From assembly GCA_964016885.1 (NCBI GenBank), contig OZ024743.1:179180001-179244000 (forward strand): a stretch of DNA of 64,000 nucleotides, given 5' to 3'. Below are positions 7,384 through 26,744 of this stretch, piece by piece. The stretch is from Eledone cirrhosa. Its lineage: Eukaryota. The notes below the pieces were generated by a model. It was not told the DNA's origin and did no database searches. It saw only the letters and a program-made list of their open reading frames with translations. The position numbers were made by a program, and so were the translations under genes. Position 1 is the stretch's first letter; the number at the start of each line of letters is the position of its first letter.

Positions 7384-7625
7384 ATTAGAAAATAGAATAG
7401 CTTTCACCGTATTTTTTGACTAAATAAATTTTAGTCTGATAATGGGGTTTAGAACCCTCAGTTAAAGATGTATTACTGTAATGGTAGCACAGTGGTCTGG
7501 ATAACCAAAGATGTGGGTTCGACTCCCATGTACGTCAATACTCATCTTTTTCCATTTAACTGAGGGTTCTAAACCCTATTATCAGACTAAAATTTATTTA
7601 GTCAAAAATACAGTGAAAGCTATTC

Positions 7626-21295: not shown

Positions 21296-21353
21296 ATGTG
21301 CGTGTGTGTATGTGTGTATGTATATGTATTCATATATATATATATATATAAAA

Positions 21354-21907
21354 AAAAGATGAAGTTTGAAATAGCACGGGAGATGTATTTAAGGGTCTGT
21401 TTTTCTCTTTTGATTCGTCAAAGTGACATTCTTGAAAAGATGTTATTAAAAAAAGAGAGGGAACATTTCTTTTTTAAAAAAATGTTCTGAAGTATATAAA
21501 GTATATGAAGAAATTACCGGTTTCGATGTATTAAAATCCATCTTGTCAAATGTGGAGTGTAAAAAATAAAAAAGAGTTAAGAGTAAAAAACGAAAGGCTT
21601 AAAATTAAAATCAAAATCAAAATCGAATTTGATTTTGATTTTGATTTTAATTTTAAACCTTTCGTTTTTCACTCCTATCAACTCTTTTTAATTTTTTACA
21701 CTCCACATTTGACAAGATGATTTTAATACATCGAAACCGGTAATTTCTTCATATACTTTATATACTTCAGAAACATTTTTTTAAAAAAGAAATGTTCCCT
21801 CTCTTTTTTTAATAACCTTATCTTTTCAATAATGTCACTTTGACGAATCAAAACAGAAAAACAGACCCTTAAATATATCTCCCGTGCTATTTCCAACTTC
21901 ATCTTTT
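21354..21907. repeat. ~555-bp near-perfect palindrome with outward-facing HHR-like motifs (21513-21551 -, 21707-21744 +)
   Basis: Arms are reverse-complementary about a centre near 21627. Each arm has TTGACAA-gatg..catc-GAAA-ccgg-TA, but stem I is only about 2 bp. Confidence 0.85.
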
Positions 21908-22056
21908 CTCTATATCCACTGTTTTGTATAGAACCCTTACATCCCTTTTCTAATATATATATATATATGTATTGATAAATATACAAATGTATATGTATTG
22001 GTATATATCATCATCATCATTTTACATCCGCTTTTCCCTGCTTGCAAGGGTGAGAC

Positions 22057-24410: not shown

Positions 24411-24489
<79 letters not shown>

Positions 24490-24534
24490 TTATATATAAT
24501 ATATATATATATATATACATACATATATATATAA

Positions 24535-24579
<45 letters not shown>

Positions 24580-24605
24580 TATATATATATATGTATGTAT
24601 ATAAA

Positions 24606-24670
<65 letters not shown>

Positions 24671-24678
24671 TATATAAA

Positions 24679-24737
<59 letters not shown>

Positions 24738-24741
24738 GCAT

Positions 24742-24773
<32 letters not shown>

Positions 24774-24892
24774 AGAAAGTGAGGGTTTTTTTACAAATTG
24801 AAAAATAACCGAGTTGTCCTACACGAGTGAAAGTATAAAGAAAAAGAGATAAATATATATATTTAAAAAAATATATATATATTTATTTGGTT

Positions 24893-24930
24893 CCTTTACC
24901 GGTTTCGCAGTTCTTCTGCTTTTCAAAAGG
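24893..24930 (-). ncRNA. Minimal type I hammerhead, U3-A8 core variant
   Basis: Minus strand reads cctt-TTGAAAA-gcag aagaa ctgc-GAAA-ccgg-TA-aagg. Confidence 0.65.
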
Positions 24931-26087
24931 TGAGTTGAGATGGAGGGTCTGTGGTTTTTCTCACATCTGGTTGGTCTCTGAATGTTACTTGTTTTATATG
25001 GAAAAAGTGGCTCGAAAGCCAGGTTTTTCGAGAAGTAATTTGATTGGTTTGTCAATAATTATAATAAATTTCGCGCCAGTTCGCGTTACAATAGTTCTTC
25101 AAATAAGAGGGGGGGGGGGGCTGTCACAGGTTGTTTTTTTCATATATGAGTGTTTGAATTTCTTTTTACTTGAAAAAAGGGGCTCACGAAGGCTTTTTTT
25201 TGGTTGGTTATAAATGAAATTATGGCTGTCACGTGAACAAGTTTTCATTAAATATTCGTGCCCTTATTTGGAAATCCCTTCTGTAGCCTTTTTAGAGAAT
25301 TTTATGATAAGTGAAAGATAATGGTCAAGAGAAAGCGATGGGAGAATTGTTCTGGTTCAGTGAATATGGTTAGTTCGCTGGGGTGTCAGAGTTCAGATTT
25401 TCTATTGAATAAAGAAAGTAAAGATATGTATGTTTATTTGTGTGCGTGTGTGTGTTGTGTGTGTGTGTGTTTGAATTTCTTTACTTAAGAAAATAAAAGT
25501 CTTCGTGAGCCACCCCTTTTTTTTAAGTAAAGAAATTCAAACACACACACACACACACAACACACACACGCACACAAATAAACATACATATCTTTACTTT
25601 CTTTATTCAATAGAAAATCTAAACTCTGACACCCCAGCGAACTAACCATATTCACTGAACCAGAACAATTCTCCCATCCCTTTCTCTTCACCATTATCTT
25701 TCACTTATCATAAAATTCTCTAAAAAGGCTACAGAATGGATTTCCAAATAAGGGCACGAATATTTAATGAAAACTTGTTCACGTGACAGCCATAATTTCA
25801 TTTATAACCAACCAAAAAAAAGCCTTCGTGAGCCCCTTTTTTCAAGTAAAAAGAAATTCAAACACTCATATATGAAAAAAAACAACCTGTGACAGCCCCC
25901 CCCCCCCCTCTTATTTGAAGAACTATTGTAACGCGAACTGGCGCGAAATTTATTATAATTATTGACAAACCAATCAAATTACTTCTCGAAAAACCTGGCA
26001 TTTCGAGCCACTTTTTCCATATAAAACAAGTAATATTCAGAGACCAACCAGATGTGAGAAAAACCACGGACCCTCCATCTCAACTCA

Positions 26088-26125
26088 GCTTTTGAAAAGC
26101 AGAAGAACTGCGAAACCGGTAAAGG
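26088..26125 (+). ncRNA. Minimal type I hammerhead, U3-A8 core variant (mirror copy)
   Basis: gctt-TTGAAAA-gcagaagaactgc-GAAA-ccgg-TA-aagg. Confidence 0.6.
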
Positions 26126-26194
26126 AACCAAATAAATATATATATTTAAAAAAAAAATAAGACTCCAGTTGCATTTTCGATTTCATCTCTTTTT

Positions 26195-26241
<47 letters not shown>

Positions 26242-26306
26242 ATTATATATATATAATATATATCAATAATATTAATAAATGGAAACTATCTTTATAAAAT
26301 CATATT

Positions 26307-26367
26307 TATTTTATTATATATATTTCAAGGGTACCAAAGTATTGGCACGCTGTCATCAGATAAAATA
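26307..26367 (-). ncRNA. Minimal type I hammerhead
   Basis: Minus strand reads tattttat-CTGATGA-cagcgtgccaa..ttggtaccctt-GAAA-tatata-TA-ataaaata. Confidence 0.8.
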
Positions 26368-26515
26368 CAAAAGTTGTTTTATAAATAGTCACGTATCAAA
26401 AACAAGAACTTATCGTTTTAAGTTCGGTTTAAATAATATTCAATACTATTTAAACATAACTTAAAACGATAAGTTCTTGTGTTTGGATATGTCACTATTT
26501 ATAAAACAACTTTTG

Positions 26516-26578
26516 TATTTTATCTGATGAGGGCGTACCAAAACTTTGGTACCCTTGAAATATGTATATAATAAAATA
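26516..26578 (+). ncRNA. Minimal type I hammerhead
   Basis: tattttat-CTGATGA-gggcgtaccaaa ac tttggtaccctt-GAAA-tatgtata-TA-ataaaata. Confidence 0.85.
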
Positions 26579-26744
26579 AATATGGTTTTATAAAGATAGT
26601 TTCCATTTATTAATATTATTGATATTACACTCCAGAAGAAACTTGTAGAGTGCTTCGACTCTATTATAAATAAATTTGTTGAATAACCATAAAATTAAAT
26701 AACTCTTTGCTTATATATAATATATATATATATTATATATATAT

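What the first reader, a model, noticed from the sequence alone, without database searches (positions are those of the whole stretch)
24872..26145. 1.27-kb palindrome with hammerheads carrying a compensatory U3-A8 core
Seen: both arms end in stem I-UUGAAAA-stem II (gcag/ctgc)-GAAA-ccgg-UA-stem I. Established: C3 and G8 of the HHR core form a Watson-Crick pair, and U3-A8 preserves it. Inference: this is a functional non-canonical HHR that CUGANGA searches would miss. Transcription through the palindrome would give a ~610-bp dsRNA hairpin trimmed by the distal ribozyme, a potential substrate for ADAR editing or siRNA production.
Basis: partly seen in the sequence, partly recalled or inferred. 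Interest (0 to 1): 0.75.

Follow-up and report, generated by a model that had tools for sequence, protein, structure and literature searches.

The report
Mirror-image Penelope element with variant hammerhead
The 1.27-kb palindrome is two shortened copies of the tail end of a Penelope-like jumping gene set head to head in a TA repeat, each carrying a hammerhead-shaped RNA motif with an already published U-A swap in its core that is predicted, not shown, to cut itself, so it is a new example of a known thing.

Summary
The palindrome is real (arms 24873-25499 and 25516-26145; 7 substitutions, 6 indels). It is not a free-standing structure. Each arm is the 3' untranslated end of an endonuclease-bearing Penelope-like retrotransposon (PLE): longer copies elsewhere carry RT and GIY-YIG reading frames directly upstream. 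The window holds one insertion, 24772-26200: two 5'-truncated copies joined head to head, a 63-nt "tail" on one side only, and (TA)n on both sides. This is the published PLE insertion pattern. Of the first 100 listed copies of the motif, 46 sit in such outward-facing pairs, with spacings of 45-1522 bp.

The motif has a complete type-I hammerhead core with U3-A8, a G10.1-C11.1 helix II and a self-complementary ACCGGU helix III. The genome holds 13,218 exact copies and none with C3-G8. Two other PLE-type families here also carry U3-A8, with different, mutually complementary helices. The U3-A8 covariation in PLE hammerheads was published in 2014 for Schistosoma. Cleavage is untested, and helix I is only 3-4 bp. 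In a read-through transcript the motif is predicted to be buried in the long duplex, so "trimming by the distal ribozyme" is not supported. Verdict: a new member of a known kind.

The parts
24414..24771 (.). (TA)n-rich microsatellite on the left of the insertion (target)
   Evidence: TA runs 24414-24485, 24487-24516, 24538-24575, 24605-24666, 24678-24729 and 24756-24771; sequence read.
24772..24834 (-). One-sided 'tail': a 63-nt extension (ACTTTCACTCG...CTTTCTAA on the - strand) behind the 3' end of the left copy
   Evidence: Coordinates. The same extension follows 22 of 39 element ends in L001-L030. In all 8 head-to-head loci that I compared, it is on one end only.
24835..25499 (-). Left arm: inverted, 5'-truncated copy of the PLE 3' untranslated region. 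It lacks about 28 nt (AAGACTCCAGTTGCATTTTCGATTTC...) that other copies have near the 3' end.
   Evidence: BLAST against 29 other loci; end sequences compared; arms aligned.
24893..24930 (-). Left hammerhead-type motif: CC-UU / UUGAAAA / GCAG-AAGAA-CUGC / GAAA / CCGG / UA / AAGG. Stem I is 4 bp. Cleavage would fall between 24897 and 24896.
   Evidence: It is the only hit of the 4-bp descriptor in the window. The monomer MFE forms helices I and II (-7.5 kcal/mol). The homodimer forms an intermolecular ACCGGU helix (-22.5).
25491..25515 (+). Junction: the right copy reaches about 25 nt further 5' than the left copy. There is no foreign spacer.
   Evidence: Homology with L002 runs 25491-26201 (right copy) and 24704-25493 (left copy).
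25500..26200 (+). Right arm: 5'-truncated copy of the PLE 3' untranslated region, ending ...CATCTCTTTTTCTTTAT without a tail
   Evidence: Longer copies elsewhere continue upstream into GIY-YIG and RT reading frames.
26088..26125 (+). Right hammerhead-type motif with the same core. Stem I is only 3 bp because of G at 26088. Cleavage would fall between 26121 and 26122.
   Evidence: G at 26088 is in 0 of 36 other copies. The monomer MFE is a different fold (-6.4).
26198..26263 (.). (AT)n microsatellite on the right of the insertion
   Evidence: TA runs 26198-26229 and 26232-26263.
21346..21915 (.). Second, older head-to-head insertion in the same window, from another family (F3) with a U3-A8 motif: UUGACAA-GAUG..CAUC-GAAA-CCGG-UA
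   Evidence: arms 82-100% complementary. There are 140 genome matches to the motif pattern.

Best explanation
The palindrome is one insertion of an endonuclease-bearing Penelope-like retrotransposon (PLE): two 5'-truncated copies of its 3' untranslated end joined head to head in a (TA)n microsatellite, each ending in a type-I hammerhead-shaped motif with a U3-A8 core that likely descends from the element's dimer-dependent ribozyme and would act as one.

Shown:
- The arms are the 3' end of an element whose longer copies encode RT followed by a GIY-YIG endonuclease.
- Copies are 5'-truncated at many different points.
- Nearly half of a sample of copies sit in outward-facing pairs.
- A fixed extension ('tail') sits on one end only.
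- Both ends abut (TA)n.
- The motif lies about 80 nt from the 3' end, which is where a canonical-hammerhead PLE family of the same genome has its ribozyme.
- The family has 13,218 exact U3-A8 copies and no C3-G8 copy.
- Two further families keep U3-A8 while their helices differ in a compensated way.

Inferred:
- The inverted copy arose during target-primed reverse transcription, by a switch to the second DNA strand or a second priming, as proposed for PLEs in general.
- Both arms came from one template (three shared rare variants) and have since decayed.
- The motif cleaves after UA only when two sense copies pair through ACCGGU. This could happen in tandem or multimeric transcripts of active elements.
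- My odds that the family's motif cleaves at a useful rate in vivo are about 0.45.
- In this particular locus it is probably inert. The right copy has lost a stem I pair, there is no sense partner, and a read-through RNA would lock it in a roughly 620-bp duplex.
For: Palindrome and motif.

High-copy young family: 1121 first-look candidates, of which 40 were scored, giving 43 matches at 95-100% identity.

RT and endonuclease upstream of the same 3' end:
- Pfam RVT_1, 31.7 bits against a cut-off of 29.6, on L046:618-1433:-.
- Pfam GIY-YIG, 32.9 bits against 22.6, on L127:117-455:-.
- Homology of four long copies runs 2.3-3.1 kb upstream.
- The DKG motif and a C-x4-C-x2-C linker can be read.

Insertion pattern:
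- Variable head-to-head junctions.
- 23 (-,+) pairs within 2 kb among the first 100 listed places, against 1 (+,-) pair and 0 same-strand pairs.
- The tail is on 22 of 39 ends, and on one end only of each head-to-head locus that I compared.
- (TA)n flanks.
- Published description of exactly these features: PMC8557442, passages.

Canonical hammerheads with the same architecture in this genome: 18 matches to RF00163 over its cut-off, followed by about 52 nt and then (TA)n or an extension.

Core counts: 13,218 U3-A8, 26 U3-G8, 61 C3-A8 and 0 C3-G8.

Other U3-A8 families:
- F2 has 453 matches. Of the first 100 listed, 99 are U3-A8. 92.5% of cells are paired against 34-47% when the partners are slid, and 7 pairs change on both sides (3 of 500 shuffles reach that). 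It matches Rfam HH9 at 25 bits, E 0.014.
- F3 has 140 matches. 18 of 23 copies keep CCGGUA. Its helices I and II differ from F1's by compensated changes, as read.

Folding: the dimer forms an intermolecular ACCGGU helix, with a gain of 6.5-7.5 kcal/mol over two monomers.

Precedent: U3-A8 in Schistosoma PLE hammerheads and opposite-strand motif pairs 100-700 bp apart (PMC4209133, passages).

Single event: three rare variants are shared by both arms.
Against: - No Rfam hammerhead model reports the motif, even at E up to 10.
- Stem I is 4 bp at best. It is 3 bp in the 7,270 places that have UCUAC before the core. There the monomer MFE does not form helix I.
- No loop-loop tertiary contact is apparent.
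- No same-strand neighbour within 5 kb was seen among the first 100 listed places. The cis partner that a dimeric ribozyme needs was therefore not observed for this family.
- PLE minimal hammerheads cleaved poorly in vitro (PMC4209133, passage).
- Naiad PLEs multiply without canonical hammerheads (PMC8557442, passage). Copy number therefore says nothing about activity.
- Copies within each family are young and related, and the core and helix II of F2 and F3 were fixed by my search patterns. Only helices I and III of those families, and the comparison between families, carry information.
- No phylogeny of the RT was made. The clade call (Neptune/Nematis-like, not Hydra) rests on motifs read by eye.
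Confidence: 0.8

Rival explanations
1. It is the same Penelope-element scar, but the motif is a catalytically dead relic. The family multiplies without ribozyme activity, and U3-A8 is simply the state of the founder copy.
For: Stem I is 3 bp in 7,270 places and is not in the MFE there. There is no Rfam hit. No same-strand partner lies within 5 kb in 100 sampled places. Published PLE minimal hammerheads show low in-vitro activity. Naiads thrive without canonical hammerheads.
Against: All other invariant core positions, G10.1-C11.1 and the palindromic helix III are intact. The only two departures from the consensus are the two that restore a pair. Two further families (F2, F3) keep U3-A8 while helices I and II change in a compensated way. 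In the canonical family, the 23 U3 variants all keep G8 and stay rare: 23 against 2,512.
Confidence: 0.4
2. One reading: the palindrome is transcribed through, folds into a roughly 610-bp dsRNA hairpin that the distal ribozyme trims, and feeds ADAR editing or siRNA production.
For: The hairpin is thermodynamically overwhelming if a read-through RNA exists (MFE -1076.8 kcal/mol for 1305 nt). One run of unrecorded kind (X4) shows four A>G differences within 17 nt (25976-25992) in 2-3 contigs. These are all but absent from three large runs of the same study.
Against: In that same fold, 47 of 47 motif positions are paired with the antisense arm. Only one sense motif is present, although helix III needs two. 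Sense transcription of each arm runs outward from the centre. The palindrome type is a general by-product of insertion, with junctions at many positions. X4's kind is unknown and it comes from another sample, so the A>G cluster may be a variant copy.
Confidence: 0.07
3. The hammerhead likeness is a chance match in an A+T-rich repeat end.
For: The relaxed descriptor does hit shuffled sequence (3 hits in 300 window shuffles), and the scan covered very many windows. Rfam sees nothing.
Against: With a palindromic loop 3 there were 0 hits in 300 shuffles. The motif sits where PLEs carry their hammerhead, in an element with RT and GIY-YIG. A canonical family of the same genome has the same layout. 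F3 repeats the design with other helices.
Confidence: 0.05
4. The palindrome is an assembly or long-read foldback artefact.
For: PLE inverted structures are known to trouble assemblies (PMC8557442, passage). The public contigs laid here do not cover the centre, 25474-25575.
Against: The arms differ by 7 substitutions and 6 indels. One arm has a tail and an internal deletion that the other lacks. The same arrangement recurs genome-wide with other junctions.
Confidence: 0.02
5. It is a foldback or MITE-type DNA transposon with long terminal inverted repeats.
For: Long inverted arms, A+T-rich flanks, high copy number.
Against: Many copies are single arms. The inner junctions vary while the outer ends are fixed. 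The arm continues upstream into RT and GIY-YIG frames in long copies.
Confidence: 0.02

Closest known systems
U3-A8 minimal hammerheads in the pseudo-LTRs of Cercyon Penelope-like elements of Schistosoma mansoni (Cervera and de la Pena 2014, PMC4209133; passages read)
   Same: Type-I hammerhead in a PLE terminal repeat. The core covaries from C3-G8 to U3-A8. Helix III is tiny and palindromic, so a dimer is needed. Most copies are single, from truncated elements, and some are pairs on opposite strands 100-700 bp apart. The paper reports about 1,300 hits; this genome has 13,218.
   Different: Different host, unrelated helix sequences, 4-bp helix II without the bulged base described there, a CCGG loop 3, and a larger, much more uniform family. 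The passages I saw do not report the activity of the U3-A8 variant. Its supplementary figures were not opened.
Insertion architecture of endonuclease-bearing PLEs (Craig, Yushenova, Rodriguez and Arkhipova 2021, PMC8557442; passages and section 11 read)
   Same: 5' truncation; an inverted 5'-truncated copy adjacent at the 5' end, giving inverted repeats; an extension ('tail') on one end only; insertion into (TA)n; RT followed by a C-terminal GIY-YIG; a CX2-5CxxC-type linker.
   Different: The tail here is 63-65 nt, against the 30-40 bp described. No partial tandem (pseudo-LTR) was seen among 100 sampled places of this family. The 3' UTR is long (about 1.6 kb) and holds microsatellites and a ~330-bp internal repeat.
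Canonical type-I hammerhead PLE family of the same genome (Rfam RF00163 Hammerhead_1; L031-L042)
   Same: Same layout: hammerhead, then 50-80 nt, then the element end, then (TA)n or a fixed extension. Head-to-head junctions lie just upstream in L031 and L037. Helix III is short.
   Different: CUGAUGA core, GUCC/GGAC helix II, 6-bp helix I with a bulge; it scores over Rfam's cut-off (37.8 bits). It has 2,512 exact copies against 13,218. Same-strand pairs about 4.7 kb apart occur in its listing.
Non-LTR retrozymes: tandem hammerhead repeats regarded as non-autonomous PLE derivatives (bioRxiv 10.64898/2026.07.22.740005; abstract only)
   Same: Hammerhead-bearing sequence related to PLE terminal repeats.
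   Different: Retrozymes are head-to-tail tandems that can give circular RNAs. This locus is head to head, and no same-strand neighbour was seen in the sample.
5' inversion of LINE-1 insertions by twin priming
   Same: It works alike. A retroelement insertion whose 5' part is inverted, with variable junctions, is explained by a second priming event on the other DNA strand.
   Different: Different retroelement class and endonuclease. PLE inverted copies duplicate the 3' end instead of inverting the 5' part of one copy.

Membership tests
Hammerhead ribozyme, type I | Invariant core U4 G5 A6 N7 A9 ... G12 A13 A14, the A15.1-U16.1 pair, H17 at the cleavage site, in the order helix I - core - helix II - GAAA - helix III - UH - helix I | tested here: met
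   UUGAAAA / GAAA / A..U / A17 read in both arms. Consensus as given in PMC7151607 (passage).
Hammerhead ribozyme, type I | C3 and G8 (strict CUGANGA box) | tested here: not met
   Both arms and 13,218 genome copies have U3 and A8. There are 0 copies with C3-G8.
Hammerhead ribozyme, type I | Positions 3 and 8 can form a Watson-Crick pair | tested here: met
   U3-A8. The same covariation is reported in PLE hammerheads (PMC4209133, passage). The C3-G8 pair is mentioned in PMC3884650 (passage).
Hammerhead ribozyme, type I | Helix II closed by G10.1-C11.1 | tested here: met
   GCAG-AAGAA-CUGC. It forms in every MFE of the family version. F3 has GAUG..CAUC, with two compensated pairs.
Hammerhead ribozyme, type I | Helix I of several base pairs flanking the cleavage site | tested here: inconclusive
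   4 bp in the left arm and its subfamily; 3 bp in the right arm and in the 7,270 UCUAC places. A 2-bp helix I is described for D. virilis PLE hammerheads.
Hammerhead ribozyme, type I | Helix III, or a palindromic loop that lets two copies form it together | tested here: met
   A-CCGG-U is self-complementary. RNAcofold forms it between two copies (-22.5 against 2 x -7.5 kcal/mol).
Hammerhead ribozyme, type I | Match to a curated covariance model (Rfam hammerhead families) | tested here: not met
   No hammerhead family was reported at gathering score or at E up to 10 on 24700-26300. The canonical family of the genome scores 37.8 bits, and F2 scores 25 bits on HH9.
Hammerhead ribozyme, type I | Site-specific self-cleavage | not testable with these tools
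   No run on record as RNA was listed. The runs laid are contigs, which cannot show RNA ends.
Endonuclease-bearing Penelope-like element (EN+ PLE) | Reverse transcriptase domain | tested here: met
   Pfam RVT_1, 31.7 bits (cut-off 29.6), on a long copy of the same element. YLDD and DKG motifs are read. No RT phylogeny was made.
Endonuclease-bearing Penelope-like element (EN+ PLE) | GIY-YIG endonuclease C-terminal to the RT | tested here: met
   Pfam GIY-YIG, 32.9 bits (cut-off 22.6), in the frame that follows the RT frame.
Endonuclease-bearing Penelope-like element (EN+ PLE) | 5'-truncated copies, an inverted 5'-truncated copy at the 5' end, a one-sided tail, microsatellite target | tested here: met
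   compared with PMC8557442.
Endonuclease-bearing Penelope-like element (EN+ PLE) | Partial tandems forming pseudo-LTRs | tested here: not met
   0 same-strand neighbours within 5 kb among the first 100 listed places of this family. This is a sample only. Full-length copies were not recovered.
Neptune/Nematis-type versus Hydra-type C-terminal EN+ PLE | Hydra: DKG changed to DKT, linker CxCX5C, CCHH absent. Neptune/Nematis: CX2-5CxxC linker. | tested here: inconclusive
   The copies read have EADKG and CGRSNCG(T/N)C (C-x4-C-x2-C). This fits Neptune/Nematis rather than Hydra as described in section 11 of PMC8557442. It was read by eye on broken copies, with no tree.
Non-LTR retrozyme | Head-to-tail tandem repeats, each with a hammerhead | tested here: not met
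   The two motifs in the window are on opposite strands. There were 0 same-strand pairs in the sample.
Foldback / MITE DNA transposon | Fixed terminal inverted repeats as the unit of transposition, with target-site duplication | tested here: not met
   Single-arm copies are common, the inner junctions vary, and the arm is the 3' UTR of an RT-EN element. Target duplications cannot be read in (TA)n.

The most novel reading that the evidence does not exclude
U3-A8 is not a curiosity here but the prevailing, selectively kept hammerhead core of several Penelope lineages of this genome. Three families with fully different, compensated helices keep it, and the largest (13,218 copies) outnumbers the canonical family five to one. 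The genome is then a natural experiment showing that the tertiary 3-8 pair can be swapped in vivo. The thousands of head-to-head copies would in addition be a standing source of long hairpin RNAs that get edited or diced. The A>G cluster in run X4 would be the first trace of that.
Probability: 0.15. Interest if true: 0.5.

Novelty: new member of a known kind. Interest (0 to 1): 0.25.

Why it matters
The finding explains a striking 1.27-kb palindrome as an ordinary insertion scar. It places a very large U3-A8 hammerhead-type family (13,218 exact copies, no canonical copy) in an autonomous RT plus GIY-YIG Penelope-like element. Its practical value is for annotation. Ribozyme searches based on CUGANGA, and Rfam, miss the most abundant hammerhead-type motif sampled in this genome. 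Palindromes of this type should be read as PLE insertions, not as designed hairpin genes or artefacts. If cleavage were shown, three families with the same core swap and different helices would give good in-vivo support for the 3-8 pair being exchangeable. That pair is already accepted from structure and from one earlier report, so the gain would be modest.

Tried and rejected
- Rfam at gathering score and at E up to 10 over 24700-26300 gave no hammerhead. It gave only microRNA-like hits to the (CA)n hairpin at the centre, all far below their cut-offs.
- RNA evidence: the look-up of sequencing runs listed no holder on record as RNA.
- The two read-laying runs used contigs of about 100-200 nt, which cannot show RNA ends. 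They gave no cover of the palindrome centre (25474-25575). The junction was therefore neither confirmed nor denied by independent data.
- The run of organism B held only scraps of the region.
- A search for canonical-core copies with the same helix II found none. The hoped-for ancestral C3-G8 relatives of this family were not found in this genome.
- The exact F3 pattern with a 9-nt loop hit only the window itself. A variable-gap pattern was needed.
- The tblastn of the F1 endonuclease and RT against the loci of F2 and of the canonical families gave one hit only (L088, 45% over 71 aa). The other loci are too truncated, so how the families' proteins relate stays open.
- No eukaryote genomes other than the window's own were available, so no cross-species comparison of the family was possible. 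The one exception is a 230-nt contig of 'organism C' with the identical motif.
- Considered and dropped: a DNA foldback transposon, a retrozyme tandem, and an assembly foldback (see the rival explanations).
- One paper reading failed on a search term that was too short and was repeated correctly.
Full report
**Observation.** The window holds a long inverted repeat at the stated place. The repeat finder gives three collinear arm pairs: 25134-25499/25516-25881 (96%), 24873-25028/25990-26145 (95%) and 25015-25120/25897-26002 (99%). A global alignment of the two halves gives 627 matches, 18 mismatches and 15 gap columns. Inside the arms proper there are 7 substitutions and 6 indel events. Both arms carry UUUUGAAAA-GCAG-AAGAA-CUGC-GAAA-CCGG-UA-AAGG, at 26090-26125 (+) and 24893-24928 (-). 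Stem I is CCUU/AAGG in the left arm. It is only 3 bp in the right arm because of a G at 26088 that none of 36 aligned copies shares. Rfam reports no hammerhead there, at gathering score or at E up to 10.

**What the arms are.** The last 271 nt of the right arm have 1121 first-look candidates in the window's own 3.0-Gb genome. Forty were scored, giving 43 matches at 95-100% identity.

In 30 fetched loci, many copies are single arms and others are head to head with different inner junctions. The outer end is fixed. Past the would-be cleavage site the sequence runs on for about 79 nt to ...CATCTCTTTTTCTTTAT. It is then followed either by (AT)n, or by a constant 63-65-nt extension and then (TA)n. 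The extension is on 22 of 39 ends. In each of the 8 head-to-head loci that I compared it is on one end only.

Four copies extended by 10 kb share homology for 2.3-3.1 kb upstream of the end. They carry, in the same orientation, a frame with reverse-transcriptase motifs followed by a GIY-YIG frame:
- Pfam RVT_1, 31.7 bits against a cut-off of 29.6.
- Pfam GIY-YIG, 32.9 bits against 22.6.

EADKG and a C-x4-C-x2-C linker can be read in these broken copies. By the description in section 11 of PMC8557442, that fits Neptune/Nematis-type elements rather than Hydra-type. This was read by eye and no tree was made.

The arm is thus the 3' untranslated end of an endonuclease-bearing Penelope-like element (PLE). 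In the window the insertion spans 24772-26200:
- tail, 24772-24834 (-)
- inverted 5'-truncated copy, 24835-25499 (-)
- 5'-truncated copy, 25491-26200 (+)
- (TA)n on both sides

**Why it is a palindrome.** Passages of Craig et al. 2021 (PMC8557442) describe PLE insertions as follows. They are highly 5'-truncated. [quoted passage not shown] They are biased to microsatellites such as (TA)n. Every one of these features is met here.

Genome-wide, the 24-mer spanning core and helix II occurs 13,218 times. Among the first 100 listed places:
- 46 form 23 outward-facing (-,+) pairs within 2 kb, at spacings of 45-1522 bp
- 1 pair is (+,-)
- none is on the same strand

A canonical-hammerhead PLE family of the same genome shows the same junctions (L031, L037).

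The two arms share three states that are rare among other copies: 25761/25254, 25758/25257 and 25895/25121. They also have four (right) and one (left) private states. This fits one insertion from one template followed by decay. It does not fit a sequencing foldback, which would give identical arms. The public contigs laid on the region are short and do not cover the centre, so there is no independent confirmation of the junction.

**Is the motif a hammerhead?** Everything that defines the core is there: U4 G5 A6 N7 A9, G10.1-C11.1, G12 A13 A14, A15.1-U16.1 and A17. The only departures are U3 and A8, which can pair with each other.

Helix III is A-CCGG-U. It cannot close on itself but is self-complementary. 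RNAcofold pairs two copies through it: -22.5 against 2 x -7.5 kcal/mol, and the same holds for the other subfamily. This is the architecture that Cervera and de la Pena 2014 (PMC4209133, passages) describe for metazoan and PLE hammerheads: helix III of 1-2 bp capped by a small palindromic loop, active as dimers.

The same passages report a covariation 'U3-A8 instead of C3-G8' in Cercyon PLEs of Schistosoma mansoni, with about 1,300 hits. They also report motif pairs on opposite strands 100-700 bp apart.

Chance is unlikely. The relaxed descriptor hit 3 times in 300 shuffles of the window, and 0 times with a palindromic loop 3. The motif also lies where PLEs carry their ribozyme. The genome's canonical family (18 matches to RF00163 over its cut-off) has hammerhead, about 52 nt, element end, then (TA)n or an extension.

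**Is U3-A8 drift?** No, not within this genome. Exact-pattern counts:

| Core state | Copies |
|---|---|
| U3-A8 | 13,218 |
| U3-G8 | 26 |
| C3-A8 | 61 |
| C3-G8 with this helix II (any N7, any 5-nt loop) | 0 |

In the canonical family the counts run the other way: 2,512 C3-G8 copies, and 23 with U3, all of which keep G8.

Two further families carry U3-A8.
- F2 is UUGAUAA-GUAC-CAAAAA-GUAC-GAAA-CAGAGCUCUG-UC, with a long helix I interrupted by an internal loop. It has 453 matches, and 99 of the first 100 listed are U3-A8. On 30 copies, 92.5% of cells pair, against 34-47% when the partners are slid. Seven pairs change on both sides, a value that 3 of 500 shuffles reach. Rfam HH9 sees it weakly (25 bits, E 0.014). 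One copy has an endonuclease frame 45% identical to that of F1 over 71 aa.
- F3 sits in a second, older palindrome of this same window (21346-21915). It reads UUGACAA-GAUG..CAUC-GAAA-CCGG-UA-AUUU. It has 140 matches, and 18 of 23 fetched copies keep CCGGUA. Against F1, helix II differs at two pairs and helix I at two or three pairs, each compensated. The core, helix III and the UA site are the same.

Caveats: my patterns fixed the core and helix II of F2 and F3, and copies within a family are close kin.

**Does it cut?** This is not known. Points against:
- Helix I is 4 bp at best. It is 3 bp in the 7,270 places with UCUAC before the core, where the MFE does not form it.
- No tertiary loop contact is evident.
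- No same-strand partner lay within 5 kb in the sample.
- PLE minimal hammerheads cleaved poorly in vitro.
- Naiad PLEs multiply without canonical hammerheads.

Points for: the exact compensatory nature of the only two core changes, and their retention in three families with different helices.

I put the odds of useful in-vivo cleavage by the family's active copies at about 0.45. That U3-A8 double mutants keep activity in vitro is my recollection of older work (Przybilski and Hammann; Nelson and Uhlenbeck), not something seen here.

**The dsRNA idea.** A transcript through the whole palindrome would fold into one long hairpin (MFE -1076.8 kcal/mol for 1305 nt). In that fold, 47 of 47 positions of the distal motif pair with the antisense copy. 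Such an RNA holds one sense motif only, and the right copy has lost a stem I pair. Trimming by the distal ribozyme is therefore not supported. Sense transcription of each arm would run outward from the centre.

No RNA run was listed. One lead remains. Run X4 is of unrecorded kind and from another sample of the same study. It shows A>G at 25976, 25978, 25981 and 25992 in 2-3 contigs (13-24% of depth). Three large runs show 0 to 5 contigs with these changes, at depths above 100,000. This could be hyper-editing if X4 is RNA. It could equally be a variant copy.

**Comparison and verdict.** It works like, and by the tested features is, an EN+ PLE insertion with a PLE-type hammerhead variant. It is not a retrozyme tandem, a foldback DNA transposon or an artefact. 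Earlier notes of this scan, on other pieces of this genome and on other genomes, reach the same reading. I treated them as leads and tested the claims here.

Novelty: a new member of a known kind. Interest is low to moderate. The useful residue is a very large U3-A8 family tied to an autonomous element, three covarying families for a clean mutational test, and the annotation lesson.

Not examined: the supplementary files of PMC4209133 and PMC8557442, which may list such variants for related hosts.

Noticed in passing
window 21346-21915: A second, older palindrome (arms 82-100% complementary) lies in (TA)n-rich surroundings. It belongs to another family (F3), whose ends carry UUGACAA-GAUG..CAUC-GAAA-CCGG-UA: again U3-A8, with the same CCGG loop 3 and UA site as the main family but compensated helices I and II.
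   Followed up: partly
L077-L106 (e.g. L082:1465-1571:+): Family F2 is a well-formed type-I hammerhead with a UUGAUAA core, a palindromic CAGAGCUCUG helix III, and a long helix I with an internal loop. It has 453 genome matches. Two copies, 319 nt apart on the same strand (both within L104; the overlapping locus L105 covers them too), look like a retrozyme-type tandem.
   Followed up: partly
window 25976-25992 (also 25748): Run X4 (kind not on record, a different sample from X1-X3) shows a cluster of four A>G differences within 17 nt in 2-3 contigs. These are all but absent from three large runs of the same study. This is either possible A-to-I hyper-editing or a variant copy.
   Followed up: partly
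G000:C1:348863669-348949708: Seven of the 61 C3-A8 single-variant copies lie on one strand, most of them 9.5-9.7 kb apart. This points to a tandem segmental repeat that contains one mutated copy.
   Followed up: no
window 25147-25477 and 25538-25868; L002, L005, L015, L016, L025, L026, L029: The 3' UTR of the element contains a ~330-bp unit that recurs upstream at about 84% identity in longer copies. It also contains (CA)n/(GT)n tracts. The palindrome centre lies at such a tract, which explains the spurious microRNA-like Rfam hits.
   Followed up: partly
genome-wide listing (C1: 0.5-29.5 Mb): Among the 23 head-to-head pairs, spacings of 91 (three times), 102-107 (six times) and 70-78 recur. 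This suggests a preferred switch point about 45 nt upstream of the motif, or short palindromic units that are themselves copied.
   Followed up: no
window 24835-24896 versus 26122-26200: The left copy lacks about 28 nt (AAGACTCCAGTTGCATTTTCGATTTC...) that the right copy and nearly all other copies have between the A-run and the 3' end.
   Followed up: no
window 26302-26401 / 26482-26581: Another inverted repeat (100 nt, 86% complementary, 80 nt apart) lies just to the right of the insertion.
   Followed up: no
window 7467-7537 (+): A tRNA gene is the only Rfam match over its gathering score in the window (43.3 bits).
   Followed up: no
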